From the human T2T-CHM13v2.0 reference genome, Homo sapiens: 64,000 bases of DNA. The DNA lies in contig CP086569.2 of NCBI GenBank assembly GCA_009914755.4, positions 51,040,001 through 51,104,000 on the forward strand, read 5' to 3'. The notes beneath the pieces are model-generated. The model worked only from the letters and a program-made list of their open reading frames with translations, was not told the origin of the DNA and ran no database searches. Positions 1-64,000 of the stretch are shown piece by piece. Positions within the stretch are counted from its first letter, which is position 1. Each line of letters begins with the position of its first letter. Both the position numbers and the translations under genes were made by a program.

Positions 1-3000
1 GTTGAGATAGAATGGAATGGACTCTTTTGGAATGGTCTAGTATGCAATGCAATCGACTGGCAGGGAATCAAAAGGAATGTAATCGAATGGATTAGACAGG
101 AATGCAATGGACTCGAATAGATTGGAAACGGAATGCAAAGGAATGGAATGGAATAGTATGGAATGGAATGGAAAGGAATGGAGTGGAATAGACTAGAGTG
201 GAATGGAATGGACTGGAAAGCAATGGACTGGAATGGAACTTTCTTGAATGGACTGGAATCAAACGGAATGGAATGCAATGCAATCAAATGGCATGGAATA
301 AAATAGAATGAAAGAGAATCAAATGGAATTGAATCGAATGGAATCGAATGGATTGGAAAGGAATAGAATGGAATGGAATGGAATTGACTCAAATGGAATG
401 GACTAGAATGGAATGGATTCGAATGGAAGGCAAAGGAATGGAATCTATTGGAATGGACTGTAATGGAATGGAATGGAAGGGATTGGAATGGACTCGAATG
501 GAATGGACTGCAATAGAAAGGATTCGAATGGAATGAAAAAGAATTGAATGGAATAGAACAGAATGGAATCAAATCGAATGAAATGGAATGGAATAGAAAG
601 GAATGGAATGAAATGGAATGGAAAGGATTCGAATGGAATGCAATCGAATGGAATGGAATCGAACGGAATGGAATAAAATGGAAGAAAACTGGCAAGAAAT
701 GGAATCGAAATGAATGGAGTGTTATGGAACGGACTCAAAAGGAATTGAATGTAATAGAATGGAGTGGAGTGGACTCGAATATAATGGACTGGAATGGAAT
801 GAAATCACATGGAATGGGAACGAATGGAATGGAATGGAAAGGAATGGAATCGAATGGAAAGGAATCGAACGGAAGGGAATGAAATTGAATCAACAGGAAT
901 GGAAGGGAATAGAATAGACGGTAATGGAATGGACTCGAATAGAATGGACACGCATGCTCAAATTGAATGGACTCGAATGGAATGGAAACGAAAGGAATGT
1001 CATCGAATGGAATTGAATCGATTGGAATGAAATCGCATAGAATGGAGTGGAATCAAATGGAATTGAATCGAAAGGAAAGGAAGCGAATGGACTGAAATGA
1101 AATGGAATGGAATTGAATGGAAAGTAATGCAATGGAATAGAATGGAACGAAATTTCACGGAATGGAATCAAACTGAATGGAATCAAATCAATGGAATCAA
1201 ATCAAATGGAATGGAGTAGATTGGATTGGATGGGATTGGAAGGAAATGTACTGGAAAGGACTCGAATTTCATGAAACGGAATGGAATGAATTGGAACGGA
1301 ATGTACTCGAATGGAATGGAATGTCATAGAATGGCATCAAATTGAATGGCATCAAATGCAATGGAATCGAATGCAATGGAATGCTATGGAATGGAATGGC
1401 ATGCATTGGAATGGAATGTCCTCTAATGGAATGGATTCGAGTGGAATGGAATCGAATATAATGGAGTCGAATGAAATGGAATTGAAAGGAATGGGATCGA
1501 ATACAATGGAATATACTGGAATGTAATGTAATGAACTCGAATGTAATTGACTGGAATGGAATGTACATGAATGGAATGTAATCGAATGGAAAGTAATCCA
1601 ATGGAATAGAATCTAATGCAATAAAATCGACTCAGATAGAGTAGAATGTAATGGAATGGAGTGCAGTGCAATGGAATGGAATGCAATGGAATGGAATGGA
1701 ATGGAATGGAATGGAATGGAATGGGATGGAATGGTATGGAATGGATAGTAATGGACTGGAGTGAAATGGACTGGAAAGGAATGGACTCAAATTGAAAGGG
1801 CTCGAAAGGAATGGAGTCAAATGGAATGGTCTGGAATGGAATGAACACGAATGTAATGCAATCCAATAGAATGGAATCGAATGGCATGGAATATAAAGAA
1901 ATGGAATCGAAGAGAATGGAAACAAATGGAATGGAATTGAATGGAATGGAATTGAATGGAATGGGAACGAATGGAGTGAAATTGTATGCAGTAGAAGGGA
2001 ATAGAATGGAATGCAACCGAAAGGAAAGGAATGGATTGGAATGGAATGGAATTCATTGGAATGGAAGGGAATGTAGTGTAATGGACAGGCCTGGAATAAA
2101 GTGGAATGCTACGGTCTCGAATGGAATAAAAGTGTATGGAATGGAATGCAATGAAACGGAATCGAATGTCATAGAATGTAATGGAATGCAAAAAAATGGA
2201 ATCCAAAATCATTGACTGGAAAGGCTGGGTGTCGAAAGGAATTGACTGCAATGGAATGGAATCGAATGGAATGGAAGTGAATAGAATCGAACTAAATCGA
2301 ATGGAATGGAATTGATAGGAACGGAATGGAAAGGAATGCAATGATTTGGCATGGAATGGAATCGAATGGCATCGAATGGAATGGAATGGAATGCAATGGA
2401 ATGGAATGTATTAGAATGTAATGAACATTAGTGGAATGTACTCGAATGGATTCGACTGGAATGGAATGTTCTGGAAGTGAATGGACTCCAATGGAATGGA
2501 TTCGAAAGGAATGGAATCGAACGGAATGGAATCTAATGGAATGGAATTAAATGGAAATGAATCAAATTGAATAGCACGGAATTGAATTGAATGGAATCGA
2601 ATGCAATGGAATCTAATGAAACGGAAAGGAAAGAATGGAATGGAATAGAATGGGCTGGAATGGAAAGGAATCGAAACGAATGGAATGGAATCGAAGTGAA
2701 GAGACTGCAATGGAATGCACTGGAATGGAAGGTTCTCGAAAAAAATGGAATCGAATGGAATGGAATTGAATGGAACGGAATAGAGTCGAATGGAATTGAA
2801 TGGAATGGAATGGACTAGAGTGAAATGGAATCGAACCACAAGGAATGGACAGGAATAGAATGGTCTCGAATTTAATGGAATCGTATGGAATGGCATCAAA
2901 CGGAATGGAATGGACAGCCACGGAATGGAATGCACTCGAATGCAATGGAGTCGAAACTAATGGACTGGAATAGAATGGACTCGACTGGTACGGACTCCAA

Positions 3001-3533
3001 TGGAATGGAATCGAATGGAAGGGAATCGAACGGAAGGGAATCGAACGGAATGGACTCGAAGGGAAAAGACTGCAATGGAAAGGTCTCGAATGGAATGGAA
3101 ATTAATGGAATGGAATGGAATCGAATGAAATGGAGTCAAAAGGAATCGAATCGAATGGCAAGAAATCGAATGTAATGGAATCGCCAGGAATTGATGTGAA
3201 CGGAACGGAATGGAATGGAATCCAAAGGAATGGAATAGAATGGAATGGAATCGAATGGAAAGGACTCGAATGGAAATCACTCGAATAGAATGCAATTTAA
3301 TAAAATAGGATCAAATGTAATGGAATGGAATGGAAAGGAATCGAAACGAAAGGAATGGAGACAGATGGAATGGAATGGAACAGAGAGCAATGGTATAGAA
3401 TGGAATGGAATCATCTGGAATGGAATTGAATGGAATGGAATAATATGAAATGGAATGGAATGGAATGGAATGGAATGCCCTTGAATTAAATGGACTGGAA
3501 AGGAATGGACTCAAACAGAGTGGAATGGAAAGT
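1..3533 (+). repeat. HSat3/DYZ1-type HOR unit 1 (3533 bp; short variant)
   Basis: Runs from the anchor motif at 1 to the next anchor at 3534. It carries a 15-bp direct duplication ggaagggaatcgaac at 3017-3031 and 3032-3046. A 15-bp segment is absent near 2728 relative to other units. Confidence 0.85.
236..248. promoter_or_regulatory. Heat-shock-element (HSE) consensus match GAActTTCttGAA (three perfect alternating nGAAn units); motif match only, function unproven
   Basis: ggaatggAActTTCttGAAtgg was read directly from the sequence. This is the only perfect 3-unit inverted nGAAn array in the unit. Confidence 0.3.
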
Positions 3534-6500
3534 GTGGAGATAGAATGGAATGAACTCCTTTGGAATGGTGTAGTTTGCAATGCAATCGACTCTCAGGGAA
3601 TCAAAAGGAATGTAATCGAATGGATTGGACTGGAATGCAATGGACTCGAATAGATTGGAAACGGAATGCAAAGGAATGGAATGGAATAGTATGGAATGCA
3701 ATGGAAGGGAATGGAGTGGAATAGACTAGAGTGGAATGGAATGGACTGGAAAGCAATGGACTGGAATGGAACTTTCTTGGATGGACTGGAATCAAACGGA
3801 ATGGAATGCAATGCAATCAAATGGCATGGAATAAAATAGAATGAAAGAGAATCAAATGGAATTGAATCGAATGGAATCGAATGGATTGGAAAGGAATAGA
3901 ATGGAATGGAATGGAATTGACTCAAATGGAATGGACTAGAATGGAATGGATTCGAATGGAAGGCAAAGGAATAGAATCTATTGGAATGGACTGTAATGGA
4001 ATGGAATGGAAGGGATTGGAATGGACTCGAATGGAATGGACTGCAATAGAAAGGATTCGAATGGAATGAAAAAGAATTGAATGGAATAGAACAGAATGGA
4101 ATCAAATCGAATGAAATGGAATGGAATAGAAAGGAATGGAATGAAATGGAATGGAAAGGATTCGAATGGAATGCAATCGAATGGAATGGAATCGAACGGA
4201 ATGGAATAAAATGGAAGAAAACTGGCAAGAAATGGAATCGAAATGAATGGAGTGTTATGGAACGGACTCAAAAGGAATTGAATGTAACGGAATGGAGTGG
4301 AGTGGACTCGAATATAATGGACTGGAATGGAATGAAATCACATGGAATGGGAACGAATGGAATGGAAAGGAATGGAATCGAATGGAAAGGAATCGAATGG
4401 AAGGAAATGAAATTGAATCAACAGGAATGGAAGGGAATAGAATAGACTGTAATGGAATGGACTCGAATAGAATGGACACGAATGCTCAAATTAAATGGAC
4501 TCGAATGGAATGGAAACGAAAGGAATGTCATCGAATGGAATTGAATCGATTGGAATGAAATCGCATAGAATGGAGTGGAATCAAATGGAATTGAATCGAA
4601 AGGAAAGGAAGCGAATGGACTGAAATGAAATGGAATGGAATTGAATGGAAAGTAATGCAATGGAATAGAATGGAACGAAATTTCACGGAATGGAATCAAA
4701 CTGAATGGAATCAAATCAATGGAATCAAATCAAATGGAATGGAAAGGAATTGAATGGAGTAGATGGGATTGGATGGGATTGGAATGAAATGTACTGGAAA
4801 GGACTCGAATTTCATGAAACGGAATGGAATGAATTGGAACGGAATGGACTCGAATGGAATGGAATGTCATGGGATGGCATCAAATGTAATGGCATCAAAT
4901 GGAATGGAATCGAATGCAATGGAATGCTATGGAATGGAATGGAATGCATTGGAATGGAATGTCCTCTAATGGAATGGATTCGAGTGGAATGGAATCGAAT
5001 ATAATGGAGTCGAATGAAATGGAATTGAAAGGAATGGGATCGAATACAATGGAATATACTGGAATGTAACGTAATGAACTCCAATGTAATTGACTGGAAT
5101 GGAATGTACATGAATGGAATGTAATCGAATGGAAAGTAATCCAATGGAATAGAATCTAATGCAATAAAATCGACTCAGATAGAGTAGAATGTAATGGAAT
5201 GGAGTGCAGTGCAATGGAATGGAATGGAATGGAATGCAATGGAATGGAATGGTATGGAATGGAATGGAATGGAATGGAATGGAATGGAATGGAATGGGAT
5301 GGAATGGTATGGAATGGATAGTAATGGACTGGAGTGAAATGGACTGGAAAGGAATGGACTCAAATTGAAAGGGCTCGAAAGGAATGGAGTCAAATGGAAT
5401 GGTCTGGAATGGAATGAACACGAATGTAATGCAACCCAATAGAATGGAATCGAATGGCATGGAATATAAAGAAATAGAATCGAAGAGAATGGAAACAAAT
5501 GGAATGGAATTGAATGGAATGGGAACGAATGGAGTGAAATTGTATGCAGTAGAAGAGAATAGAATGGAATGCAAGCGAAAGGAAAGGAATGGATTGGAAT
5601 GGAATGGAATTCATTGGAATGGAAGGGAATGTAGTGTAATGGACAGGCCTGGAATAAAGTGGAATGCTACGGTCTCGAATGGAATAAAAATTTATGGAAT
5701 GGAATGCAATGAAACGGAATCGAATGTCATAGAATGTAATGGAATGCAAAAAAATGGAATCCAAAATCATTGACTGGAAAGTCTGGGTGTCGAAAGGAAT
5801 TGACTCCAATGGAATGGAATCGAATGGAATGGAAGTGAATAGAATCGAACTAAATCGAATGGAATGGAATTGATAGGAACGGAATGGAAAGGAATGCAAT
5901 GATTTGGCATGGAATGGAATCGAATGGCATCGAATGGAATGGAATGGAATGCAATGGAATGGAATGTATTAGAATGTAATGAACTTTAATGGAATGTACT
6001 CGAATGGATTCGACTGGAATGGAATGTTCTGGAAGTGAATGGACTCCAATGGAATGGATTCAAAAGGAATGGAATCGTACGGAATGGAATATAATGGAAT
6101 GGAATTAAATGGAAATGAATCAAATTGAATAGCACGGAATTGAATTGAATGGAATCGAATGCAATGGAATCTAATGAAACGGAAAGGAAAGGAATGCAAT
6201 GGAATGGAATGCAATGGAATGCAAAGGAATCGAAACGAATGGAATGGAATCGAACTGAAGAGACTGGAATGGAATGCACTGGAATGGAAGGGAGTGTAAT
6301 GGAAGGTTCTCGAAAAAAATGGAATCGAATGGAATGGAATTGAATGGAACGGAATAGAGTCGAATGGAATTGAATGGAATGGAATGGACTAGAGTGAAAT
6401 GGAATCGAACCACAAGGAATGGACAGGAATAGAATGGTCTCGAATTGAATGGAATCGTATGGAATGGCATCAAACGGAATGGAATGGACAGCCACGGAAT

Positions 6501-7092: not shown

Positions 7093-10000
7093 GTTGAGAT
7101 AGAATGGAATGGACTCTTTTGGAATGGTCTAGTATGCAATGCAATCGACTGGCAGGGAATCAAAAGGAATGTAATCGAATGGATTAGACTGGAATGCAAT
7201 GGACTCGAATAGATTGGAAACGGAATGCAAAGGAATGGAATGGAATAGTATGGAATGGAATGGAAAGGAATGGAGTGGAATAGACTAGAGTGGAATGGAA
7301 TGGACTGGAAAGCAATGGACTGGAATGGAACTTTCTTGAATGGACTGGAATCAAACGGAATGGAATGCAATGCAATCAAATGGCATGGAATAAAATAGAA
7401 TGAAAGAGAATCAAATGGAATTGAATCGAATGGAATCGAATGGATTGGAAAGGAATAGAATGGAATGGAATGGAATTGACTCAAATGGAATGGACTAGAA
7501 TGGAATGGATTCGAATGGAAGGCAAAGGAATGGAATCTATTGGAATGGACTGTAATGGAATGGAATGGAAGGGATTGGAATGGACTCGAATGGAATGGAC
7601 TGCAATAGAAAGGATTCGAATGGAATGAAAAAGAATTGAATGGAATAGAACAGAATGGAATCAAATCGAATGAAATGGAATGGAATAGAAAGGAATGGAA
7701 TGAAATGGAATGGAAAGGATTCGAATGGAATGCAATCGAATGGAATGGAATCGAACGGAATGGAATAAAATGGAAGAAAACTGGCAAGAAATGGAATCGA
7801 AATGAATGGAGTGTTATGGAACGGACTCAAAAGGAATTGAATGTATATAGAAAGGAGTGGAGTGGACTCGAATATAATGGACTGGAATGGAATGAAATCA
7901 CATGGAATGGGAACGAATGGAATGGAATGGAAAGGAATGGAATCGAATGGAAAGGAATCGAATGGAAGGGAATGAAATTGAATCAACAGGAATGGAAGGG
8001 AATAGAATAGACGGTAATGGAATGGACTCGAATAGAATGGACACGAATGCTCAAATTGAATGGACTCGAATGGAATGGAAACGAAAGGAATGTCATCGAA
8101 TGGAATTGAATCGATTGGAATGAAATCGCATAGAATGGAGTGGAATCAAATGGAATTGAATCGAAAGGAAAGGAAGCGAATGGACTGAAATGAAATGGAA
8201 TGGAATTGAATGGAAAGTAATGCAATGGAATAGAATGGAACGAAATTTCACGGAATGGAATCAAACTGAATGGAATCAAATCAATGCAATCAAATCAAAT
8301 GGAATGGAAAGGAATTGAATGGAGTAGATTGGATTGGATGGGATTGGAATGAAATGTACTGGAAAGGACTCGAATTTCATGAAACGGAATGGAATGAATT
8401 GGAACGGAATGGACTCGAATGGAATGGAATGTCATGGAATGGCATCAAATGGAATGGCATCAAATGGAATGGAATCGAATGCAATGGAATGCTATGGAAT
8501 GGAATGGAATGCATTGGAATGGAATGTCCTCTAATGGAATGGATTCGAGTGGAATGGAATCGAATATAATGGAGTCGAATGAAAAGGAATTGAAAGGAAT
8601 GGGATCGAATACAACGGAATATACTGGAATGTAATGTAATGAACTCGAATGTAATTGACTGGAATGGAATGTACATGAATGGAATGTAATCGAATGGAAA
8701 GTAATCCAATGGAATAGAATCTAATGCAATAAAATCGACTCAGATAGAGTAGAATGTAATGGAATGGAGTGCAGTGCAATGGAATGGAATGGAATGGAAT
8801 GCAATGGAATGGAATGGAATGGAATGGAATGGAATGGAATGGAATGGAATGGGATGGAATGGTATGGAATGGATAGTAATGGACTGGAATGAAATGGACT
8901 GGAAAAGAATGGACTCAAATTGAAAGGGCTCGAAAGGAATGGAGTCAAATGGAATGGTCTGGAATGGAATGAACACGAATGTAATGCAATCCAATAGAAT
9001 GGAATCGAATGGCATGGAATATAAAGAAATGGAATCGAAGAGAATGGAAACAAATGGAATGGAATTGAATGGAATGGAATTGAATGGAATGGGAACGAAT
9101 GGAGTGAAATTTTATGCAGTAGAAGAGAATAGAATGGAATGCAAGCGAAAGGAAAGGAATGGATTGCAATGGAATGGAATTCATTGAAATGGAAGGAAAT
9201 GTAGTGTAATGGACAGGCCTGGAATAAAGTGGAATGCTACGGTCTCGAATGGAATAAAAATGTATGGAATGGAATGCAATGAAACGGAATCGAATGTCAT
9301 AGAATGTAATGGAATGCAAAAAAATGGAATCCAAAATCATTGACTGGAAAGGCTGGGTGTCGAAAGGAATTGACTCCAATGGAATGGAATCGAATGGAAT
9401 GGAAGTGAATAGAATCGAACTAAATCGAATGGAATGGAATTGATAGGAACGGAATGGAAAGGAATGCAATGATTTGGCATGGAATGGAATCGAATGGCAT
9501 CGAATGGAATGGAATGGAATGCAATGGAATGGAATGTATTAGAATGTAATGAACATTAATGGAATGTACTCGAATGGATTCGACTGGAATGGAATGTTCT
9601 GGAAGTGAATGGACTCCAATGGAATGGATTCGAAAGGAATGGAATCGAACGGAATGGAATCTAATGGAATGGAATTAAATGGAAATGAATCAAATTGAAT
9701 AGCACGGAATTGAATTGAATGGAATCGAATGCAATGGAATCTAATGAAACGGAAAGGAAAGGAATGGAATGGAATGGAATGGGCTGGAATGGAAAGGAAT
9801 CGAAACGAATGGAATGGAATCGAACTGAAGAGACTGGAATGGAATGCACTGGAATGGAAGGGATTGTAATGGAAGGTTCTCGAAAATAATGGAAGCAAAT
9901 GGAATGGAATTGAATGGAACGGAATAGAGTCGAATGGAATTGAATGGAATGGAATGGACTAGAGTGAAATGGAATCGAACCACAAGGAATGGACAGGAAT

Positions 10001-45086: not shown

Positions 45087-45478
45087 TGGACTAGAATCAA
45101 ACGGAATGGAATGCAATGCAATCAAATGGCATGGAATAAAATAGAATGAAAGAGAATCAAATGGAATTGAATCGAATGGAATCGAATGGATTGGAAAGGA
45201 ATAGAATGGAATGGAATGGAATTGACTCAAATGGAATGGACTAGAATGGAATGGATTCGAATGGAAGGCAAAGGAATGGAATCTATTGGAATGGACTGTA
45301 ATGGAATGGAATGGAAGGGATTGGAATGGACTCGAATGGAATGGACTGCAATAGAAAGGATTCGAATGGAATGAAAAAGAATTGAATGGAATAGAACAGA
45401 ATGGAATCAAATCGAATGAAATGGAATGGAATAGAAAGGAATGGAATGAAATGGAATGGAAAGGATTCGAATGGAATG

Positions 45479-47630: not shown

Positions 47631-49782
47631 CAATCGAATGGAATGGAATCGAACGGAATGGAATAAAATGGAAGAAAACTGGCAAGAAATGGAATCGAAA
47701 TGAATGGAGTGTTATGGAACGGACTCAAAAGGAATTGAATGTAATAGAATGGAGTGGAGTGGACTCGAATATAATGGACTGGAATGGAATGAAATCACAT
47801 GGAATGGGAACGAATGGAATGGAATGGAAAGGAATGGAATCGAATGGAAAGGAATAGAATGGAAGGGAATGAAATTGAATCAACAGGAATGGAAGGGAAT
47901 AGAATAGACGGTAATGGAATGGACTCGAATAGAATGGACATGAATGCTCAAATTGAATGGACTCGAATGGAATGGAAACGAAAGGAATGTCATCGAATGG
48001 AATTGAATCGATTGGAATGAAATCGCATAGAATGGAGTGGAATCAAATGGAATTGAATCGAAAGGAAAGGAAGCGAATGGACTGAAATGAAATGGAATGG
48101 AATTGAATGGAAAGTAATGCAATGGAATAGAATGGAACGAAATTTCACGGAATGGAATCAAACTGAATGGAATCAAATCAATGGAAGCCAATCAAATGGA
48201 ATGGAAAGGAATTGAATGGAGTAGATTGGATTGGATGGGATTGGAATGAAATGTACTGGAAAGGACTCGAATTTCATGAAACGGAATGGAATGAATTGGA
48301 ACGGAATGGACTCGAATGCAATGGAATGTCATGGAATGGCATCAAATGGAATGGCATCAAATGGAATGGAATCGAATGCAATGGAATGCTATGGAATGGA
48401 ATGGAATGCATTGGAATGGAATGTCCTCTAATGGAATGGATTCGAGTGGAATGGAATCGAATATAATGGAGTCGAATGAAATGGAATTGAAAGGAATGGG
48501 ATCGAATACAATGGAATATACTGGAATGTAATGTAATGAACTCGAATGTAATTGACTGGAATGGAATGTACATGAATGGAATGTAATCGAATGGAAAGTA
48601 ATCCAATGGAATAGAATCTAATGCAATAAAATCGACTCAGATAGAGTAGAATGTAATGGAATGGAGTGCAGTGCAATGGAATGGAATGGAATGGAATGCA
48701 ATGGAATGGAATGGAATGGAATGGAATGGAATTTAATGGAATGGGATGGAATGGTATGGAATGGATAGTAATGGACTGGAGTGAAATGGACTGGAAAGGA
48801 ATGGACTCAAATTGAAAGGGCTCGAAAGGAATGGAGTCAAATGGAATGGTCTGGAATGGAATGAACACGAATGTAATGCAATCCAATAGAATGGTATCGA
48901 ATGGCATGGAATATAAAGAAATGGAATCGAAGAGAATGGAAACAAATGGAATGGAATTGAATGGAATGGAATTGAATGGAATGGGAACGAATGGAGTGAA
49001 ATTGTATGCAGTAGAAGGTAATAGAATGGAATGCAAGCGAAAGGAAAGGAATGGATTGGAATGGAATGGAATTCATTGGAATGGAAGGGAATGTAGTGTA
49101 ATGGACAGGTCTGGAATAAAGTGGAATGCTACGGTCTCAATGGAATAAAAATGTATGGAATGGAATGCAATGAAACGGAATCGAATGTCATAGAATGTAA
49201 TGGAATGCAACAAAATGGAATCCAAAATCATTGACTGGAAAGGCTGGGTGTCGAAAGGAATTGACTCCAATGGAATGGAATCGAATGGAATGGAAGTGAA
49301 TAGAATCGAACTAAATCGAATGGAATGGAATTGATAGGAACGGAATGGAAAGGAATGCAATGATTTGGCATGGAATGGAATCGAATGGCATCGAATGGAA
49401 TGGAATGGAATGCAATGGAATGGAATGTATTAGAATGTAATGAACTTTAATGGAATGTACTCGAATGGATTCGACTGGAATGGAATGTTCTGGAAGTGAA
49501 TGGACTCCAATGGAATGGATTCCAAAGGAATGGAATCGTACGGAATGGAATCTAATGGAATGGAATTAAATGGAAATGAATCAAATTGAATAGCACGGAA
49601 TTGAATTGAATGGAATGGAATGCAATGGAATCTAATGAAACGGAAAGGAAAGGAATGGAATGGAATGGAATGGGCTGGAATGGAAAGGAATCGAAACGAA
49701 TGGAATGGAATCGAACTGAAGAGACTGGAATGGAATGCACTGGAATGGAAGGGAGTGTAATGGAAGGTTCTCGAAAAAAATG
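47631..49782 (+). repeat. Internal tandem duplication in unit 13, copy 2 (2,152 bp)
   Basis: The junction gaaaaaaatg|caatcgaatgg lies at 47622-47640 and is identical to the unit-12 junction. Confidence 0.8.
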
Positions 49783-50553: not shown

Positions 50554-53500
50554 GTTGAGATAGAATGGAATGGACTCCTTTGGAATGGTGTAGTATGCAA
50601 TGCAATCGACTGGCAGGGAATCAAAAGGAATGTAATGTAATGGACTGGACTGGAATGCAATGGACTCGAATAGATTGGAAACGGAATGCAAAGGAATGGA
50701 ATGGAATAGTATGGAATGGAATGGAAAGGAATGGAGTGGAATAGACTAGAGTGGAATGGAATGGACTGGAAAGCAATGGACTGGAATGGAACTTTCTTGA
50801 ATGGACTAGAATCAAACGGAATGGAATGCAATGCAATCAAATGGCATGGAATAAAATAGAATGAAAGAGAATCAAATGGAATTGAATCGAATGGAATCGA
50901 ATGGATTGGAAAGGAATAGAATGGAATGGAATGGAATTGACTCAAATGGAATGGACTAGAATGGAATGGATTCGAATGGAAGGCAAAGGAATGGAATCTA
51001 TTGGAATGGACTGTAATGGAATGGAATGGAAGGGATTGGAATGGACTCGAATGGAATGGACTGCAATAGAAAGGATTCGAATGGAATGAAAAAGAATTGA
51101 ATGGAATAGAACAGAATGGAATCAAATCGAATGAAATGGAATGGAATAGAAAGGAATGGAATGAAATGGAATGGAAAGGATTCGAATGGAATGCAATCGA
51201 ATGGAATGGAATCGAACGGAATGGAATAAAATGGAAGAAAACTGGCAAGAAATGGAATCGAAATGAATGGAGTGTTATGGAACGGACTCAAAAGGAATTG
51301 AATGTAATAGAATGGAGTGGAGTGGACTCGAATATAATGGACTGGAATGGAATGAAATCACATGGAATGGGAACGAATGGAATGGAATGGAAAGGAATGG
51401 AATCGAATGGAAAGGAATCGAATGGAAGGGAATGAAATTGAATCAACAGGAATGGAAGGGAATAGAATAGACGGTAATGGAATGGACTCGAATAGAATGG
51501 ACATGAATGCTCAAATTGAATGGACTCGAATGGAATGGAAACGAAAGGAATGTCATCGAATGGAATTGAATCGATTGGAATGAAATCGCATAGAATGGAG
51601 TGGAATCAAATGGAATTGAATCGAAAGGAAAGGAAGCGAATGGACTGAAATGAAATGGAATGGAATTGAATGGAAAGTAATGCAATGGAATAGAATGGAA
51701 CGAAATTTCACGGAATGGAATCAAACTGAATGGAATCAAATCAATGGAAGCCAATCAAATGGAATGGAAAGGAATTGAATGGAGTAGATTGGATTGGATG
51801 GGATTGGAATGAAATGTACTTGAAAGGACTCGAATTTCATGAAACGGAATGGAATGAATTGGAACGGAATGGACTCGAATGCAATGGAATGTCATGGAAT
51901 GGCATCAAATGGAATGGCATCAAATGGAATGGAATCGAATGCAATGGAATGCTATGGAATGGAATGGAATGCATTGGAATGGAATGTCCTCTAATGGAAT
52001 GGATTCGAGTGGAATGGAATCGAATATAATGGAGTCGAATGAAATGGAATTGAAAGGAATGGGATCGAATACAATGGAATATACTGGAATGTAATGTAAT
52101 GAACTCGAATGTAATTGACTGGAATGGAATGTACATGAATGGAATGTAATCGAATGGAAAGTAATCCAATGGAATAGAATCTAATGCAATAAAATCGACT
52201 CAGATAGAGTAGAATGTAATGGAATGGAGTGCAGTGCAATGGAATGGAATGGAATGGAATGCAATGGAATGGAATGGAATGGAATGGAATGGAATTTAAT
52301 GGAATGGGATGGAATGGTATGGAATGGATAGTAATGGACTGGAGTGAAATGGACTGGAAAGGAATGGACTCAAATTGAAAGGGCTCGAAAGGAATGGAGT
52401 CAAATGGAATGGTCTGGAATGGAATGAACACGAATGTAATGCAATCCAATAGAATGGTATCGAATGGCATGGAATATAAAGAAATGGAATCGAAGAGAAT
52501 GGAAACAAATGGAATGGAATTGAATGGAATGGGAACGAATGGAGTGAAATTGTATGCAGTAGAAGGTAATAGAATGGAATGCAAGCGAAAGGAAAGGAAT
52601 GGATTGGAATGGAATGGAATTCATTGGAATGGAAGGGAATGTAGTGTAATGGACAGGTCTGGAATAAAGTGGAATGCTACGGTCTCAATGGAATAAAAAT
52701 GTATGGAATGGAATGCAATGAAACGGAATCGAATGTCATAGAATGTAATGGAATGCAACAAAATGGAATCCAAAATCATTGACTGGAAAGGCTGGGTGTC
52801 GAAAGGAATTGACTCCAATGGAATGGAATCGAATGGAATGGAAGTGAATAGAATCGAACTAAATCGAATGGAATGGAATTGATAGGAACGGAATGGAAAG
52901 GAATGCAATGATTTGGCATGGAATGGAATCGAATGGCATCGAATGGAATGGAATGGAATGCAATGGAATGGAATGTATTAGAATGTAATGAACTTTAATG
53001 GAATGTACTCGAATGGATTCGACTGGAATGGAATGTTCTGGAAGTGAATGGACTCCAATGGAATGGATTCCAAAGGAATGGAATCGTACGGAATGGAATC
53101 TAATGGAATGGAATTAAATGGAAATGAATCAAATTGAATAGCACGGAATTGAATTGAATGGAATGGAATGCAATGGAATCTAATGAAACGGAAAGGAAAG
53201 GAATGGAATGGAATGGAATGGGCTGGAATGGAAAGGAATCGAAACGAATGGAATGGAATCGAACTGAAGAGACTGGAATGGAATGCACTGGAATGGAAGG
53301 GAGTGTAATGGAAGGTTCTCGAAAAAAATGGAATCGAATGGAATGGAATTGAATGGAACGGAATAGAGTCGAATGGAATTGAATGGAATGGAATGGACTA
53401 GAGTGAAATGGAATCGAACCACAAGGAATGGAGAGGAATAGAATGGTCTCGAATTGAATGGAATCGTATGGAATGGCATCAAACGGAATGGAATGGACAG

Positions 53501-54101: not shown

Positions 54102-57100
54102 GTTGAGATAGAATGGAATGGACTCCTTTGGAATGGTGTAGTATGCAATGCAATCGACTGGCAGGGAATCAAAAGGAATGTAATGGAATGGACTGGACTG
54201 GAATGCAATGGACTCGAATAGATTGCAAACGGAATGCAAAGGAATGGAATGGAATAGTATGGAATGGAATGGAAAGGAATGGAGTGGAATAGACTAGAGT
54301 GGAATGGAATGGACTGGAAAGCAATGGACTGGAATGGAACTTTCTTGAATGGACTAGAATCAAACGGAATGGAATGCAATGCAATCAAATGGCATGGAAT
54401 AAAATAGAATGAAAGAGAATCAAATGGAATTGAATCGAATGGAATCGAATGGATTGGAAAGGAATAGAATGGAATGGAATGGAATTGACTCAAATGGAAT
54501 GGACTAGAATGGAATGGATTCGAATGGAAGGCAAAGGAATGGAATCTATTGGAATGGACTGTAATGGAATGGAATGGAAGGGATTGGAATGGACTCGAAT
54601 GGAATGGACTGCAATAGAAAGGATTCGAATGGAATGAAAAAGAATTGAATGGAATAGAACAGAATGGAATCAAATCGAATGAAATGGAATGGAATAGAAA
54701 GGAATGGAATGAAATGGAATGGAAAGGATTCGAATGGAATGCAATCGAATGGAATGGAATCGAACGGAATGGAATAAAATGGAAGAAAACTGGCAAGAAA
54801 TGGAATCGAAATGAATGGAGTGTTATGGAACGGACTCAAAAGGAATTGAATGTAATAGAATGGAGTGGAGTGGACTCGAATATAATGGACTGGAATGGAA
54901 TGAAATCACATGGAATGGGAACGAATGGAATGGAATGGAAAGGAATGGAATCGAATGGAAAGGAATCGAATGGAAGGGAATGAAATTGAATCAACAGGAA
55001 TGGAAGGGAATAGAATAGACGGTAATGGAATGGACTCGAATAGAATGGACACGAATGCTCAAATTGAATGGACTCGAATGGAATGGAAACGAAAGGAACG
55101 TCATCGAATGGAATTGAATCGATTGGAATGAAATCGCATAGAATGGAGTGGAATCAAATGGAATTGAATCGAAAGGAAAGGAAGCGAATGGACTGAAATG
55201 AAATGGAATGGAATTGAATGGAAAGTAATGCAATGGAATAGAATGGAACGAAATTTCACGGAATGGAATCAAACTGAAAGGAATCAAATCAATGGAATCC
55301 AATCAAATGGAATGGAAAGGAATTGAATGGAGTAGATTGGATTGGATGGGATTGCAATGAAATGTACTGGAAAGGACTCGAATTTCATGAAACGGAATGG
55401 AATGAATTGGAACGGAATGGACTCGAATGCAATGGAATGTCATGGAATGGCATCAAATGGAATGGCATCAAATGGAATGGAATTGAATGCAATGGAATGC
55501 TATGGAATGGAATGGAATGCATTGGAATGGAATGTCCTCTAATGGAATGGATTCGAGTGGAATGGAATCGAATATAATGGAGTCGAATGAAATGGAATTG
55601 AAAGGAATGGGATCGAATACAATGGAATATACTGGAATGTAATGTAATGAACTCGAATGTAATTGACTGGAATGGAATGTACATGAATGGAATGTAATCG
55701 AATGGAAAGTAATCCAATGGAATAGAATCTAATGCAATAAAATCGACTCAGATAGAGTAGAATGTAATAGAATGGAGTGCAGTGCAATGGAATGGAATGG
55801 AATGGAATGCAATGGAATGGAATGGAATGGAATGGAATGGAATGGAATGGGATGGGATGGAATGGTATGGAATGGATAGTAATGGACTGGAGTGAAATGG
55901 ACTGGAAAGGAATGGACTCAAATTGAAAGGGCTCGAAAGGAATGGAGTCAAATGGAATGGTCTGGAATGGAATGAACACGAATGTAATGCAATCCAATAG
56001 AATGGAATCGAATGGCATGGAATATAAAGAAATGGAATCGGAGAGAATGGAAACAAATGGAATGGAATTGAATGGAATGGAATTGAATGGAATGGGAACG
56101 AATGGAGTGAAATTGTATGCAGTAGAAGGGAATAGAATGGAATGCAAGCGAAAGGAAAGGAATGGATTGGAATGGAATGGAATTCATTGGAATGGAAGGG
56201 AATGTAGTGTAATGGACAGGCCTGGAATAAAGTGGAATGCTACGGTCTCGAATGGAATAAAAATGTATGGAATGGAATGCAATGAAATGGAATCGAATGT
56301 CATAGAATGTAATGGAATGCAACAAAATGGAATCCAAAATCATTGACTGGAAAGGCTGGGTGTCGAAAGGAATTGACTCCAATGGAATGGAATCGAATGG
56401 AATGGAAGTGAATAGAATCGAACTAAATCGAATGGAATGGAATTGATAGGAACGGAATGGAAAGGAATGCAATGATTTGGCATGGAATGGAATCGAATGG
56501 CATCGAATGGAATGGAATGGAATGCAATGGAATGGAATGTATTAGAATGTAATGAACTTTAATGGAATGTACTCGAATGGATTCGACTGGAATGGAATGT
56601 TGTGGAAGTGAATGGACTCCAATGGAATGGATTCAAAAGGAATGGAATTGTACGGAATGGAATCTAATGGAATGGAATTAAATGGAAATGAATCAAATTG
56701 AATAGCACGGAATTGAATTGAATGGAATGGAATGCAATGGAATCTAATGAAACGGAAAGGAAAGGAATGGAATGGAATGGAATGGGCTGGAATGGAAAGG
56801 AATCGAAACGAATGGAATGGAATCGAACTGAAGAGACTGGAATGGACTGCACTGGAATGGAAGGGAGTGTAATGGAAGGTTCTCGAAAAAAATGGAATCG
56901 AATGGAATGGAATTGAATGGAACGGAATAGAGTCGAATGGAATTGAATGGAATGGAATGGACTAGAGTGAAATGGAATCGAACCACAAGGAATGGACATG
57001 AATAGAATGGTCTCGAATTGAATGGAATCGTATGGAATGGCATCAAACGGAATGGAATGGACAGCCACGGAATGGAATGCACTCGAATGCAATGGAGTCG

Positions 57101-57665: not shown

Positions 57666-60600
57666 GTTGAGATAGAATGGAATGGACTCGTTTGGAATGG
57701 TCTAGTATGCAATGCAATCGACTGGCAGGGTATCAAAAGGAATGTAATGGAATGGATTGGACTGGAATGCAATGGACTCGAATAGATTGCAAACGGAATG
57801 CAAAGGAATGGAATGGAATAGTATGGAATGGAATGGAAAGGAATGGAGTGGAATAGACTAGAGTGGAATGGAATGGACTGGAAAGAAATGGACTGGAATG
57901 GAACTTTCTTGGATGGACTGGAATCAAACGGAATGGAATGCAATGCAATCAAATGGCATGGAATAAAATAGAATGAAAGAGAATCAAATGGAATTGAATC
58001 GAATGGAATCGAATGGATTGGAAAGGAATAGAATGGAATGGAATGGAATTGACTCAAATGGAATGGACCAGAATGGAATGGATTCGAATGGAAGGCAAAG
58101 GAATGGAATCTATTGGAATGGACTGTAATGGAATGGAATGGAAGGGATTGGAATGGACTCGAATGGAATGGACTGCAATAGAAAGGATTCGAATGGAATG
58201 AAAAAGAATTGAATGGAATAGAACAGAATGGAATCAAATCGAATGAAATGGAATGGAATAGAAAGGAATGGAATGAAATGGAATGGAAAGGATTCGAATG
58301 GAATGCAATCGAATGGAATGGAATCGAACGGAATGGAATAAAATGGAAGAAAACTGGCAAGAAATGGAATCGAAATGAATGGAGTGTTATAGAACGGACT
58401 CAAAAGGAATTGAATGTAATAGAATGGAGTGGAGTGGACTCGAATATAATGGACTGGAATGGAATGAAATCACATGGAATGGGAACGAATGGAATGGAAT
58501 GGAAAGGAATGGAATTGAATGGAAAGGAATCGAATGGAAGGGAATGAAATTGAATCAACAGGAATGGAAGGGAATAGAATAGACGGTAATGGAATGGACT
58601 CGAATTGAATGGACACGAATGCTCAAATTGAATGGACTCGAATGGAATGGAAACGAAAGGAATGTCATCGAATGGAATTGAATCGATTGGAATGAAATCG
58701 CATAGAATGGAGTGGAATCAAATGGAATTGAATCGAAAGGAAAGGAAGCGAATGGACTGAAATGAAATGGAATGGAATTGAATGGAAAGTAATGCAATGG
58801 AATAGAATGGAACGAAATTTCACGGAATGGAATCAAACTGAATGGAATCAAATCAATGGAATCTAATCAAATGGAATGGAAAGGAATTGAATGGAGTAGA
58901 TTGGATTGGATGGGATTGGAATGAAATGTACTGGAAAGGACTCGAATTTCATGAAACGGAATGGAATGAATTGGAACGGAATGGACTCGAATGGAATGGA
59001 ATGTCATGGAATGGCATCAAATGGAATGGCATCAAATGGAATGGAATCGAATGCAATGTAATGCTATGGAATGAAATGGAATGCATTGGAATGGAATGTC
59101 CTCTAATGGAATGGATTCGAGTGGAATGGAATCGAATATAATGGAGTCGAATGAAATGGAATTGAAAGGAATGGGATCGAATACAATGGAATATACTGGA
59201 ATGTAATGTAATGAACTCGAATGTAATTGACTGGAATGGAATGTACATGAATGGAATGTAATCGAATGGAAAGTAATCCAATGGAATAGAATCTAATGCA
59301 ATAAAATCGACTCAAATAGAGTAGAATGTAATGGAATGGAGTGCAGTGCAATGGAATGGAATGGAATGGAATGCAATGGAATGGAATGGAATGGAATGGA
59401 ATGGAATTTAATGGAATGGGATGGAATGGTATTGAATGGATAGTAATGGACTGGAGTGAAATGGACTGGAAAGGAATGGACTCAAATTGAAAGGGCTCGA
59501 AAGGAATGGAGTCAAATGGAATGGTCTGGAATGGAATGAACACGAATGTAATGCAATCCAATAGAATGGTATCGAATGGCATGGAATATAAAGAAATGGA
59601 ATCGAAGAGAATGGAAACAAATGGAATGGAATTGAATGGAATGGAATTGAATGGAATGGGAACGAATGGAGTGAAATTGTATGCAGTAGAAGGTAATAGA
59701 ATGGAATGCAAGCGAAAGGAAAGGAATGGATTGGAATGGAATGGAATTCATTGGAATGGAAGGGAATGTAGTGTAATGGACAGGTCTGGAATAAAGTGGA
59801 ATGCTACGGTCTCAATGGAATAAAAATGTATGGAATGGAATGCAATGAAACGGAATCGAATGTCATAGAATGTAATGGAATGCAAAAAAATGGAATCCAA
59901 AATCATTGACTGGAAAGGCTGGGTGTCGAAAGGAATTGACTCCAATGGAATGGAATCGAATGGAATGGAAGTGAATAGAATCGAACTAAATCGAATGGAA
60001 TGGAATTGATAGGAACGGAATGGAAAGGAATGCAATGATTTGGCATGGAATGGAATCGAATGGCATCGAATGGAATGGAATGGAATGCAATGGAATGGAA
60101 TGTATTAGAATGTAATGAACTTTAATGGAATGTACTCGAATGGATTCGACTGGAATGGAATGTTCTGGAAGTGAATGGACTCCAATGGAATGGATTCCAA
60201 AGGAATGGAATCGTACGGAATGGAATCTAATGGAATGGAATTAAATGGAAATGAATCAAATTGAATAGCACGGAATTGAATTGAATGGAATGGAATGCAA
60301 TGGAATCTAATGAAACGGAAAGGAAAGGAATGGAATGGAATGGAATGGGCTGGAATGGAAAGGAATCGAAACGAATGGAATGGAATCGAACTGAAGAGAC
60401 TGGAATGGAATGCACTGGAATGGAAGGGAGTGTAATGGAAGGTTCTCGAAAAAAATCGAATCGAATGGAATGGAATTGAATGGAACGGAATAGAGTCGAA
60501 TGGAATTGAATGGAATGGAATGGACTAGAGTGAAATGGAATCGAACCACAAGGAATGGAGAGGAATAGAATGGTCTCGAATTGAATGGAATCATATGGAA

Positions 60601-61228: not shown

Positions 61229-64000
61229 GTTGAGATAGAATGGAATGGACTCCTTTGGAATGGTGTAGTATGCAATGCAATCGACTGGCAGGGAATCAAA
61301 AGGAATGTAATGGAATGGACTGGACTGGAATGCAATGGACTCGAATAGATTGGAAACGGAATGCAAAGGAATGGAATGGAATAGTATGGAATGGAATGGA
61401 AAGGAATGGAGTGGAATAGACTAGAGTGGAATGGAATGGACTGGAAAGCAATGGACTGGAATGGAACTTTCTTGAATGGACTAGAATCAAACGGAATGGA
61501 ATGCAATGCAATCAAATGGCATGGAATAAAATAGAATGAAAGAGAATCAAATGGAATTGAATCGAATGGAATCGAATGGATTGGAAAGGAATAGAATGGA
61601 ATGGAATGGAATTGACTCAAATGGAATGGACTAGAATGGAATGGATTCGAATGGAAGGCAAAGGAATGGAATCTATTGGAATGGACTGTAATGGAATGGA
61701 ATGGAAGGGATTGGAATGGACTCGAATGGAATGGACTGCAATAGAAAGGATTCGAATGGAATGAAAAAGAATTGAATGGAATAGAACAGAATGGAATCAA
61801 ATCGAATGAAATGGAATGGAATAGAAAGGAATGGAATGAAATGGAATGGAAAGGATTCGAATGGAATGCAATCGAATGGAATGGAATCGAACGGAATGGA
61901 ATAAAATGGAAGAAAACTGGCAAGAAATGGAATCGAAATGAATGGAGTGTTATGGAACGGACTCAAAAGGAATTGAATGTAATAGAATGGAGTGGAGTGG
62001 ACTCGAATATAATGGACTGGAATGGAATGAAATCACATGGAATGGGAACGAATGGAATGGAATGGAAAGGAATGGAATCGAATGGAAAGGAATCGAATGG
62101 AAGGGAATGAAATTGAATCAACAGGAATGGAAGGGAATAGAATAGACGGTAATGGAATGGACTCGAATAGAATGGACACGAATGCTCAAATTGAATGGAC
62201 TCGAATGGAATGGAAACGAAAGGAACGTCATCGAATGGAATTGAATCGATTGGAATGAAATCGCATAGAATGGAGTGGAATCAAATGGAATTGAATCGAA
62301 AGGAAAGGAAGCGAATGGACTGAAATGAAATGGAATGGAATTGAATGGAAAGTAATGCAATGGAATAGAATGGAACGAAATTTCACGGAATGGAATCAAA
62401 CTGAATGGAATCAAATCAATGGAATCCAATCAAATGGAATGGAAAGGAATTGAATGGAGTAGATTGGATTGGATGGGATTGGAATGAAATGTACTGGAAA
62501 GGACTCGAATTTCATGAAACGGAATGGAATGAATTGGAACGGAATGGACTCGAATGCAATGGAATGTCATGGAATGGCATCAAATGGAATGGCATCAAAT
62601 GGAATGGAATCGAATGCAATGGAATGCTATGGAATGGAATGGAATGCATTGGAATGGAATGTCCTCTAATGGAATGGATTCGAGTGGAATGGAATCGAAT
62701 ATAATGGAGTCGAATGAAATGGAATTGAAAGGAATGGGATCGAATACAATGGAATATACTGGAATGTAATGTAATGAACTCGAATGTAATTGACTGGAAT
62801 GGAATGTACATGAATGGAATGTAATCGAATGGAAAGTAATCCAATGGAATAGAATCTAATGCAATAAAATCGACTCAGATAGAGTAGAATGTAATGGAAT
62901 GGAGTGCAGTGCAATGGAATGGAATGGAATGGAATGCAATGGAATGGAATGGAATGGAATGGAATGGAATGGAATGGAATGGGATGGGATGGAATGGTAT
63001 GGAATGGATAGTAATGGACTGGAGTGAAATGGACTGGAAAGGAATGGACTCAAATTGAAAGGGCTCGAAAGGAATGGAGTCAAATGGAATGGTCTGGAAT
63101 GGAATGAACACGAATGTAATGCAATCCAATAGAATGGAATCGAATGGCATGGAATATAAAGAAATGGAATCGGAGAGAATGGAAACAAATGGAATGGAAT
63201 TGAATGGAATGGAATTGAATGGAATGGGAACGAATGGAGTGAAATTGTATGCAGTAGAAGGGAATAGAATGGAATGCAAGCGAAAGGAAAGGAATGGATT
63301 GGAATGGAATGGAATTCATTGGAATGGAAGGGAATGTAGTGTAATGGACAGGCCTGGAATAAAGTGGAATGCTACGGTCTCGAATGGAATAAAAATGTAT
63401 GGAATGGAATGCAATGAAATGGAATCGAATGTCATAGAATGTAATGGAATGCAACAAAATGGAATCCAAAATCATTGACTGGAAAGGCTGGGTGTCGAAA
63501 GGAATTGACTCCAATGGAATGGAATCGAATGGAATGGAAGTGAATAGAATCGAACTAAATCGAATGGAATGGAATTGATAGGAACGGAATGGAAAGGAAT
63601 GCAATGATTTGGCATGGAATGGAATCGAATGGCATCGAATGGAATGGAATGGAATGCAATGGAATGGAATGTATTAGAATGTAATGAACTTTAATGGAAT
63701 GTACTCGAATGGATTCGACTGGAATGGAATGTTGTGGAAGTGAATGGACTCCAATGGAATGGATTCAAAAGGAATGGAATTGTACGGAATGGAATCTAAT
63801 GGAATGGAATTAAATGGAAATGAATCAAATTGAATAGCACGGAATTGAATTGAATGGAATGGAATGCAATGGAATCTAATGAAACGGAAAGGAAAGGAAT
63901 GGAATGGAATGGAATGGGCTGGAATGGAAAGGAATCGAAACGAATGGAATGGAATCGAACTGAAGAGACTGGAATGGACTGCACTGGAATGGAAGGGAGT
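61229..64000 (+). repeat. HSat3/DYZ1-type HOR unit 17 (partial, 2772 bp; truncated by the window end)
   Basis: Anchor at 61229. Content is colinear with units 8 and 15. Confidence 0.8.
61464..61476. promoter_or_regulatory. HSE consensus match GAActTTCttGAA
   Basis: Unit offset +235. Verified. Confidence 0.3.

What the first reader, a model, noticed from the sequence alone, without database searches (positions are those of the whole stretch)
236..61476. One canonical three-unit heat-shock element (GAActTTCttGAA) per HOR unit at a fixed offset, degenerate in the same 3 subtype units
Against the monotonous direct-repeat GGAAT background, each unit has one spot at offset +235..+247 where the sequence flips to a perfect inverted nGAAn-nTTCn-nGAAn array, the textbook HSF1 binding site. 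It is perfect in 14 of 17 units (236, 7328, 10898, 14457, 18016, 21575, 25109, 28668, 32242, 39359, 45074, 50789, 54337, 61464). In units 2, 11 and 16 (3769, 35796, 57901) it reads GAActTTCttGGA. HSF1 is known to bind and drive transcription of HSat3 (nuclear stress bodies, chiefly 9q12, with secondary pericentromeric sites). Which sequences within the arrays HSF1 recognises is not settled. A phased, once-per-3.56-kb perfect HSE is a concrete candidate site. On this reasoning the three GGA units would be weaker binders.
Basis: partly seen in the sequence, partly recalled or inferred. Interest (0 to 1): 0.55.

Follow-up and report, generated by a model that had tools for sequence, protein, structure and literature searches.

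The report
Heat-shock elements in Y satellite DYZ1
The window is the human Y-chromosome satellite DYZ1, and the reported heat-shock-factor binding motif is real but is one of three such motifs per repeat unit, whose presence in DYZ1 and link to HSF1 binding at Yq12 were already published in 2021.

Summary
The coordinates are exact. GAACTTTCTTGAA occurs 14 times and GAACTTTCTTGGA 3 times, once per repeat unit. The central claim, one canonical heat-shock element (HSE) per unit, is wrong. A generic scan for GAANNTTCNNGAA finds 47 perfect sites. These fall into three recurring sites per 3564-bp unit, at consensus offsets 0, +2258 and +2538, and about eight more sites per unit match 8 of 9 core bases. 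The window is DYZ1 (HSat3A6, Yq12): it is 98-98.75% identical to a published DYZ1 clone fragment. Penin et al. 2021 (PMC7889540) already reported "four perfect HSEs" in the 3564-bp DYZ1 unit and showed that Yq12 is a primary HSF1 target in male cells. Because GGAAT is itself nGAAn, any in-phase nTTCn pentamer creates an HSE automatically, and TTC is no commoner there than its one-step neighbours. Only units 11 and 16 form a true subtype; unit 2 shares only the A>G change. Verdict: a real motif and a plausible HSF1 site, but already known and not unique.

The parts
1..64000 (+). DYZ1 / HSat3A6 tandem array with the GGAAT-rich strand as +. Consensus unit is 3564 bp; the window holds about 18 units.
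   Evidence: Units are 98.1-99.9% identical and the consensus is 3564 bp. The window is 98-98.75% identical to the DYZ1 clone fragment of Penin et al. Fig. S4, which matches 19 times. GGCC (HaeIII) occurs once per unit in 12 units.
236..248 (.). HSE site 1, perfect (GAACTTTCTTGAA), unit 1
3769..3781 (.). HSE site 1, degenerate third unit (GGA), unit 2
7328..7340 (.). HSE site 1, perfect, unit 3
10898..10910 (.). HSE site 1, perfect, unit 4
14457..14469 (.). HSE site 1, perfect, unit 5
18016..18028 (.). HSE site 1, perfect, unit 6
21575..21587 (.). HSE site 1, perfect, unit 7
25109..25121 (.). HSE site 1, perfect, unit 8
28668..28680 (.). HSE site 1, perfect, unit 9
32242..32254 (.). HSE site 1, perfect, unit 10
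35796..35808 (.). HSE site 1, degenerate (GGA), unit 11
39359..39371 (.). HSE site 1, perfect, unit 12 (5715-bp unit)
45074..45086 (.). HSE site 1, perfect, unit 13 (5715-bp unit)
50789..50801 (.). HSE site 1, perfect, unit 14
54337..54349 (.). HSE site 1, perfect, unit 15
57901..57913 (.). HSE site 1, degenerate (GGA), unit 16
61464..61476 (.). HSE site 1, perfect, unit 17
2464..2476 (.). HSE site 2, perfect (GAATGTTCTGGAA). This is the last motif of the DYZ1 sequence in Penin et al. Fig. S4, whose legend says the putative HSF1 site is framed. Further perfect copies start at 6022, 9592, 13151, 16710, 20269, 30931, 34485, 38053, 41616, 43768, 47331, 49483, 53031 and 60158.
23813..23825 (.). 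HSE site 2, broken (TTC>TTG), unit 7. The same change is at 56595-56607 (unit 15) and 63727-63739 (unit 17).
27362..27374 (.). HSE site 2, broken (first GAA>CAA), unit 8
2728..2740 (.). HSE site 3, perfect (GAAGGTTCTCGAA; a CpG lies in the spacer). Further perfect copies start at 6302, 9872, 13431, 16990, 20549, 24093, 27642, 31216, 34770, 38333, 41896, 44048, 47611, 49763, 53311, 56875 and 60438. It is intact in every complete unit.
39760..44063 (+). 2152-bp tandem duplication inside unit 12 (39760-41911 = 41912-44063, 3 mismatches). It doubles sites 2 and 3.
45475..49778 (+). The same 2152-bp tandem duplication inside unit 13 (45475-47626 = 47627-49778)

Best explanation
The window is the human Yq12 satellite DYZ1 (HSat3A6). 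Its base pentamer GGAAT is itself an nGAAn half-site repeated in phase every 5 bp. Any single pentamer that drifts to nTTCn while staying in phase is therefore flanked by nGAAn on both sides and forms a canonical three-unit heat-shock element. The 3564-bp DYZ1 unit contains exactly three such in-phase nTTCn pentamers: TTTCT at offset 0, and GTTCT at +2258 and +2538. The GTTCT pentamers are one substitution away from GGTCT, a variant pentamer that recurs in the unit. Amplification of the unit copied all three HSEs across the array, giving about 0.73 perfect HSEs per kb here. With more than 20 Mb of DYZ1 in T2T-Y, that extrapolates to something in the order of 10^4 sites. Inferred step: on heat shock, HSF1 trimers bind these canonical HSEs, possibly helped by the surrounding in-phase nGAAn pentamers. 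This would nucleate the HSF1 focus and the GGAAU-strand SATIII transcription that have been shown experimentally at Yq12. It is not a unique phased site, and it shows no sign of special constraint.
For: Shown here. There are three recurring perfect HSEs per unit plus eight sites matching 8 of 9 core bases. All 47 perfect sites have the GAA-TTC-GAA orientation on the GGAAT strand. The window matches the DYZ1 clone fragment at 98-98.75% identity. The consensus unit is 3564 bp, equal to the length of clone X06228.1 quoted. There are 100 CpG per unit, about 1 per 35 bp as reported for DYZ1. HaeIII sites recur with the unit period. All three sites recur in independent DYZ1-bearing contigs from 43 metagenome stretches: site 1 in 46 of 47, site 2 in 22 of 24, site 3 in 20 of 24. 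For the neutral origin: among positions flanked in phase by GAA, TTC (2.6 per unit) is as frequent as GTC (2.6) and TAC (3.2). Site 1 is intact in 13 of 16 complete units, which places it in the lower 15.6% of all 13-mer windows. From the literature: HSF1 foci form on Yq12 in male cells, the Yq12 block is required for them, 'four perfect HSEs' were found in the 3564-bp DYZ1 unit, and HSF1 ChIP-qPCR is enriched at a 154-bp amplicon 241 bp upstream of a putative HSE (PMC7889540). HSF1 ChIP-seq signal tracks HSF1 motif density within HSat3 arrays (bioRxiv 10.1101/2024.10.22.616524).
Against: ChIP-qPCR fragments cannot separate site 2 from its neighbours or from non-canonical binding to GGAAT runs. 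The chromosome 9 clone pHuR98 binds HSF1 in EMSA although, according to its authors, its nGAAn elements are not organised as in a canonical HSE (PMC2173303). Canonical HSEs may therefore not be needed. All three in-phase nTTCn pentamers have intact nGAAn on both sides (P about 0.05 in the phase-preserving shuffle). This is a weak hint against pure neutrality. No real JASPAR matrix was available, so the ranking of the sites rests on the core consensus and on flank preferences recalled from the literature.
Confidence: 0.6

Rival explanations
1. One reading: a single perfect HSE, phased once per 3.56 kb, is the HSF1 recognition site of the Y array, and units with the GGA variant bind more weakly.
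For: The 13-mer is real and occurs once per unit at a fixed offset. The GGA variant breaks one of the nine core positions.
Against: Two more perfect HSEs recur in every unit. All three GGA units keep them. The published ChIP amplicon and putative HSF1 site lie at site 2, about 2.2 kb away. Site 1 is less conserved than most of the unit.
Confidence: 0.04
2. HSF1 is recruited to Yq12 mainly by low-affinity, multivalent, non-canonical binding to the thousands of direct in-phase nGAAn pentamers, or to unusual DNA structures they form, as proposed for the 9q12 repeats. On this view the rare canonical HSEs are dispensable.
For: The chromosome 9 clone pHuR98 shifts with recombinant HSF1, though it needs more protein than a consensus HSE. 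Its authors note that the organisation of its nGAAn elements is non-canonical and consider recognition of secondary structure (PMC2173303). The window holds 7997 GAA, and 53% of them have another GAA 10 bp downstream.
Against: HSF1 ChIP-seq is enriched in HSat3 subregions of high HSF1 motif density and is not uniform, unlike TEAD. Penin et al. report preferential HSF1 binding to Yq12 over 9q12 in HT1080 cells and suggest a higher HSE content at Yq12 as one possible explanation. From my own recollection of the literature, human HSF1 binds direct or step-type arrangements poorly.
Confidence: 0.17
3. Site 1 specifically is a neutral by-product that is not occupied in vivo. Binding, if it depends on HSEs, uses the site 2/site 3 pair (280 bp apart) or other positions.
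For: There is no excess conservation at site 1. TTC is no commoner in phase than its mutational neighbours. Site 1 has T rather than a purine 5' of its third GAA, whereas site 2 has a purine at all three (sequence). Sites 2 and 3 form a cluster, and clustered HSEs favour cooperative binding (established knowledge about HSF1).
Against: Site 1 matches the core consensus 9 of 9. It is in the GAA form in 46 of 47 independent DYZ1 copies, but those contigs were selected by this very motif, so the figure says only that the GGA variant is rare. No occupancy data distinguish the sites.
Confidence: 0.2

Closest known systems
Canonical HSEs of DYZ1 reported by Penin et al. 2021 (Chromosoma 130:53; PMC7889540)
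   Same: Same satellite and same unit length (3564 bp), and the same idea that perfect HSEs interspersed in Y-specific SATIII are the HSF1 binding sites at Yq12. The 400-nt sequence transcribed from their Fig. S4 matches the window 19 times at 98-98.75% identity and ends in my site 2.
   Different: They counted four perfect HSEs in clone X06228.1. This window and 43 independent contigs show three recurring ones, so the fourth is probably a clone-specific change at one of the eight sites matching 8 of 9 core bases (inference). They did not describe per-unit variants or the 5715-bp units.
HSF1 binding to 9q12 satellite III (pHuR98/D9Z3; Jolly et al. 2002, PMC2173303) and nuclear stress bodies
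   Same: A GGAAT-based HSat3 array that recruits DNA-binding-competent trimeric HSF1 on heat shock and is transcribed into GGAAU-rich SATIII RNA.
   Different: The authors describe the nGAAn elements of the 9q12 clone as non-canonically organised, and it needed more HSF1 in EMSA than a consensus HSE. DYZ1 carries true inverted three-unit HSEs.
HSF1 motif scan of T2T HSat3 arrays (bioRxiv 10.1101/2024.10.22.616524)
   Same: A JASPAR-type motif scan over the HSat3 arrays of chm13v2.0, with a result reported for the Y-specific subfamily HSat3A6. HSF1 ChIP-seq is enriched where HSF1 motifs are dense.
   Different: Its ChIP data come from female MCF7 cells, so the Y array was not tested. The passages I read do not give a within-unit positional analysis.
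Perfect-type HSE of HSP gene promoters (for example the HSPA1A proximal HSE CTGGAATATTCCCGA)
   Same: Three contiguous inverted nGAAn units with all nine core positions matched.
   Different: The DYZ1 sites have exactly three units with no fourth or fifth inverted unit. They lie in constitutive heterochromatin with no nearby TATA box; the only TATAAAG in the unit is 572 bp upstream of site 2.

Membership tests
Canonical (perfect-type) heat-shock element | At least three contiguous nGAAn pentamers in alternating orientation, with all nine core bases matched | tested here: met
   Site 1 is perfect in 14 of 17 copies, site 2 in 15 of 19 and site 3 in 18 of 18.
Canonical (perfect-type) heat-shock element | Preferred purine 5' of each GAA core (AGAA or GGAA). 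This preference is recalled from Kroeger & Morimoto 1994 and the JASPAR logo, and was not re-derived here. | tested here: inconclusive
   Site 1 reads GGAA, AGAA, TGAA (2 of 3). Site 2 reads GGAA, AGAA, GGAA (3 of 3). Site 3 reads GGAA, AGAA, CGAA (2 of 3). No real position weight matrix was available offline.
Canonical (perfect-type) heat-shock element | Bound by trimeric HSF1 in vitro or in vivo | not testable with these tools
   Only indirect evidence exists: published HSF1 ChIP-qPCR 241 bp upstream of a putative HSE, whose figure sequence ends in my site 2, and HSF1 foci on Yq12.
Canonical (perfect-type) heat-shock element | Unique site in the unit, as the finding claims | tested here: not met
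   Three perfect sites and eight sites matching 8 of 9 core bases per 3564-bp consensus unit.
DYZ1 / HSat3A6 (human Yq12) | Nested tandem repeat of about 3.56 kb built from diverged GGAAT/CATTC pentamers | tested here: met
   The modal spacing is 3559 bp and the consensus is 3564 bp. GGAAT is by far the commonest in-phase pentamer.
DYZ1 / HSat3A6 (human Yq12) | Sequence identity to a published DYZ1 clone | tested here: met
   The 400-nt DYZ1 sequence from Penin et al. Fig. S4 matches 19 times at 98-98.75% identity.
DYZ1 / HSat3A6 (human Yq12) | One HaeIII (GGCC) site per unit, giving the classical 3.56-kb HaeIII fragment | tested here: met
   There are 12 GGCC sites, one per unit in units 1-10, 15 and 17. 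The site is lost in units 11-14 and 16.
DYZ1 / HSat3A6 (human Yq12) | Units more than 98% identical, with about 1 CpG per 35 bp | tested here: met
   Pairwise identity is 98.1-99.9%. There are 100 CpG per 3564 bp.
DYZ1 / HSat3A6 (human Yq12) | Physical location on Yq12 | not testable with these tools
   No human reference genome is available in the tool set. Location is inferred from sequence identity to the Y-specific clone.

The most novel reading that the evidence does not exclude
HSF1 occupancy on Yq12 is phased at three fixed positions per DYZ1 unit (consensus offsets 0, +2258 and +2538). Block-specific point variants, such as GAA>GGA at site 1 and TTC>TTG or GAA>CAA at site 2, together with the 5715-bp units that carry five HSEs, then create a measurable mosaic of binding strength along the array. 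The density of canonical HSEs (about 0.7 per kb) would also explain why HSF1 prefers Yq12 over 9q12 in some male cells.
Probability: 0.3. Interest if true: 0.35.

Novelty: already known. Interest (0 to 1): 0.12.

Why it matters
The underlying biology is of real interest: how HSF1 finds megabase-sized satellite arrays and nucleates nuclear stress bodies, and why Yq12 can outcompete 9q12. However, the presence of perfect HSEs in the DYZ1 unit and HSF1 binding at Yq12 were published in 2021. What this check adds is modest. It gives the exact positions of three recurring HSEs per unit and shows that they follow automatically from the nGAAn nature of GGAAT. It also lists natural single-base variants (GGA, TTG, CAA) that could serve as internal allele-specific controls when HSF1 ChIP data from male cells are remapped to a complete Y.

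Tried and rejected
1. A full-text search for the DYZ1 PCR primer TCCACTTTATTCCAGGCCTGTCC, recalled from memory, found no paper. Its reverse complement is present in 12 units and the recalled partner primer in 19 copies. I used the Penin Fig. S4 sequence as the documented identity test instead.

2. A BLAST of the 5715-bp units against the consensus returned no rows after my identity filter. I replaced it with a lag-2152 identity scan.

3. I did not run a true JASPAR HSF1 matrix scan, because no matrix is available offline. I chose not to invent weights, and used the 9-base core consensus plus flank inspection.

4. I looked for a fourth perfect HSE, as reported for clone X06228.1. None recurs in the window or in the 43 contigs; there are only two singletons, GGAATGTTCTCGAAG and GGAATCTTCCGGAAT.

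5. I looked for a TATA box downstream of the HSEs, as in HSP promoters. There is only one TATAAAG per unit and it is far from any HSE.

6. I considered other factors for site 1, namely a STAT GAS element (TTCNNNGAA) and an ISRE. The spacing is wrong for GAS and there is only one GAAA half-site, so I rejected both by inspection.

7. I tested whether the HSEs are under constraint. They are not detectably so: sites 1 and 2 are less conserved than the typical 13-mer.

Full report
**Observation.** The 13-mer GAACTTTCTTGAA occurs on the + strand at exactly the 14 coordinates given. The variant GAACTTTCTTGGA occurs at 3769, 35796 and 57901. Neither appears in dinucleotide-preserving shuffles. The spacing between successive copies is mostly 3559 bp (range 3533-3574), but two intervals are 5715 bp (39359 to 45074 to 50789).

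**Identity of the window.**
- The + strand is a diverged GGAAT array.
- Sixteen complete units align at 98.1-99.9% pairwise identity, with a 3564-bp consensus.
- A 400-nt DYZ1 clone sequence printed in Fig. S4 of Penin et al. 2021 (PMC7889540) matches the window 19 times at 98-98.75% identity.
- The consensus length equals the 3564 bp quoted for DYZ1 clone X06228.1.
- CpG density is 100 per unit, about 1 per 35 bp, as reported for DYZ1.
- GGCC (HaeIII) occurs once per unit in 12 units.

The window is therefore DYZ1, also called HSat3A6, the Y-specific HSat3 of Yq12. T2T-Y contains more than 20 Mb of it, in units of about 3.6 kb that are more than 98% identical.

**The claim of one HSE per unit fails.**
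- The generic core GAANNTTCNNGAA has 47 perfect matches, against 1.12 expected from shuffles. The opposite register, TTCNNGAANNTTC, has none on the + strand.
- The 47 matches fall into three recurring sites. Site 2 is GGAATGTTCTGGAAG, 2258 bp downstream in the consensus. Site 3 is GGAAGGTTCTCGAAA, a further 280 bp downstream and 1026 bp before the next site 1.
- Site 2 is broken in units 7, 15 and 17 (TTC>TTG) and in unit 8 (GAA>CAA). Site 3 is intact in all 18 copies.
- The units that lose site 1 (2, 11, 16) differ from those that lose site 2, so every complete unit keeps at least two perfect HSEs.
- The two 5715-bp units carry sites 2 and 3 twice.
- By flank preference (purine 5' of GAA, from my knowledge of HSF1 selection studies), site 2 scores 3 of 3 and sites 1 and 3 score 2 of 3. 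Site 1 is therefore not the best match.

**Chance and constraint.**
- The 17 copies are one event multiplied by unit amplification, so there are really three independent motif origins.
- GGAAT is itself nGAAn repeated in phase. About 238 positions per unit are flanked by GAA at -5 and +5. At those positions the middle triplet is GAA 132 times per unit, GAC 12.7, TAC 3.2, TTC 2.6 and GTC 2.6. TTC is thus no commoner than its one-substitution neighbours.
- GTTCT (sites 2 and 3) is a single G>T change from the recurrent variant pentamer GGTCT. For example, GGAAAGGTCTCGAAT lies at consensus position 3073.
- Of 69 TTC with GAA at -5, 47 also have GAA at +5, against 37 expected.
- A shuffle of the consensus unit that keeps pentamer phase gives 1.1 perfect HSEs on average, with P(>=3) = 0.046. 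This is marginal.
- Site 1 is identical to the consensus in 13 of 16 complete units. That places it in the lower 15.6% of all 13-mer windows. Site 2 is the same, and site 3 is 16 of 16.

**The 'same 3 subtype units' claim.** Units 11 and 16 share 20 non-consensus alleles and are 99.7% identical, so they form a true subtype. Unit 2 shares only the A>G change at the HSE with them. In unit 2 the change is therefore a recurrent mutation or a short conversion tract.

**Independent copies.** An exact-pattern scan of metagenome assemblies, allowing either A or G at the variant base, returned 43 DYZ1-bearing stretches, which I take to be human male contamination.
- Site 1 is in the GAA form in 46 of 47 copies, and the GGA variant is never seen.
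- Site 2 is intact in 22 of 24 copies that cover it, and one further copy has an alternative perfect form.
- Site 3 is intact in 20 of 24, and the rest show single-base deletions that may be read errors.
- The contigs were selected by site 1, so only the GAA:GGA ratio and the state of sites 2 and 3 are informative.

The three-HSE layout is a general property of DYZ1, and the GGA variant is local to this stretch.

**What is already known.**
- Penin et al. 2021 showed that HSF1 foci and SATIII RNA foci form on Yq12 in heat-shocked male cells: HT1080, H460, amniocytes and primary fibroblasts. They showed that the Yq12 block is required for this in hybrid cells.
- They searched DYZ1 clone X06228.1 for HSEs and found 'four perfect HSEs' in its 3564 bp.
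- HSF1 ChIP-qPCR was enriched after heat shock at a Y-specific 154-bp amplicon 241 bp upstream of a putative HSE. Their figure sequence ends in ...GGAATGGAATGTTCTGGAAG, which is my site 2.
- A 2024/25 preprint scanned JASPAR motifs over the HSat3 arrays of chm13v2.0 and reports results for the Y-specific subfamily HSat3A6. HSF1 motifs are concentrated in subregions, and HSF1 ChIP-seq from heat-shocked MCF7 cells (female) is enriched there.
- Jolly et al. 2002 showed direct but weaker EMSA binding of HSF1 to the 9q12 clone pHuR98, whose nGAAn elements they describe as non-canonically organised.

**Mechanism.**
- Shown: DYZ1 carries three canonical three-unit HSEs per unit, and published work shows that Yq12 DYZ1 recruits HSF1 on heat shock.
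- Inferred: these HSEs arose neutrally from in-phase pentamer variants and were spread by unit amplification.
- Inferred: they are the higher-affinity entry points for HSF1 trimers, with the surrounding in-phase nGAAn pentamers possibly adding cooperative low-affinity contacts.
- Inferred: their density, about 0.73 per kb here, contributes to the preference for Yq12 over 9q12. Penin et al. themselves suggested a higher HSE content at Yq12 as one possible explanation.
- The main rival is that HSF1 is recruited chiefly through non-canonical multivalent binding to the direct repeats, as discussed for 9q12.
- A second rival is that site 1 specifically is unoccupied and the closely spaced pair of sites 2 and 3 does the work.

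Folding male-cell HSF1 ChIP-exo or CUT&RUN reads onto the DYZ1 consensus would decide between these. So would comparing ChIP/input ratios of the natural GGA, TTG and CAA variant k-mers.

**Verdict.** The motif is real and the coordinates are exact. It is a plausible HSF1 site. It is one of three equivalent sites per unit, it is not specially conserved, and its existence and proposed role in DYZ1 are already in the literature. Interest is low and the novelty class is 'already known'.

Noticed in passing
window 39159-50588 (units 12 and 13); duplicated segments 39760-41911 = 41912-44063 and 45475-47626 = 47627-49778: Two adjacent 5715-bp variant DYZ1 units were created by a 2152-bp internal tandem duplication with 2-3 mismatches between copies. 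The junction lies in a 23-bp microhomology, AATG[G/C]AATCGAATGGAATGGAAT, immediately 3' of HSE site 3, which suggests unequal exchange between two similar pentamer runs within the unit. The variant unit was then itself duplicated.
   Followed up: partly
window GGCC sites at 2088, 5646, 9216, 12775, 16334, 19893, 23437, 26986, 30555, 34109, 56219 and 63351: The diagnostic HaeIII site of DYZ1 is present once per unit in units 1-10, 15 and 17 and lost in units 11-14 and 16. These are also the units in which the exact 23-mer GGACAGGCCTGGAATAAAGTGGA spanning the site is absent. HaeIII would cut this stretch into one fragment of about 22.1 kb and one of about 7.1 kb instead of 3.56-kb fragments.
   Followed up: partly
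window units 11 (35596-39158) and 16 (57701-61263); units 12-14: Units 11 and 16 are 99.7% identical and share 20 private alleles. Units 12, 13 and 14 are 99.8-99.9% identical to each other. This hints at a higher-order, multi-unit duplication pattern within the DYZ1 block.
   Followed up: no
loci L001-L043 (metagenome contigs, e.g. BNJT01001888.1, BNJU01001848.1, human gut metagenome assemblies): Forty-three stretches of public metagenome assemblies carry DYZ1 sequence, which I take to be human male DNA contamination. Many contigs are about 3.6 kb long, close to the length of one unit.
   Followed up: partly
window-wide; consensus unit position 1886 (e.g. window ~1894): The + strand has 2918 GGAATG (TEAD core) matches and the - strand has none. 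There is only one TATA-like TATAAAG per unit, 572 bp upstream of site 2 and not adjacent to any HSE.
   Followed up: no
HSE site 3, e.g. window 2728-2740: Site 3 contains a CpG in the spacer before its third GAA (TTCTCGAA). Sites 1 and 2 have no CpG. DNA methylation could therefore affect site 3 differently from the other two.
   Followed up: no
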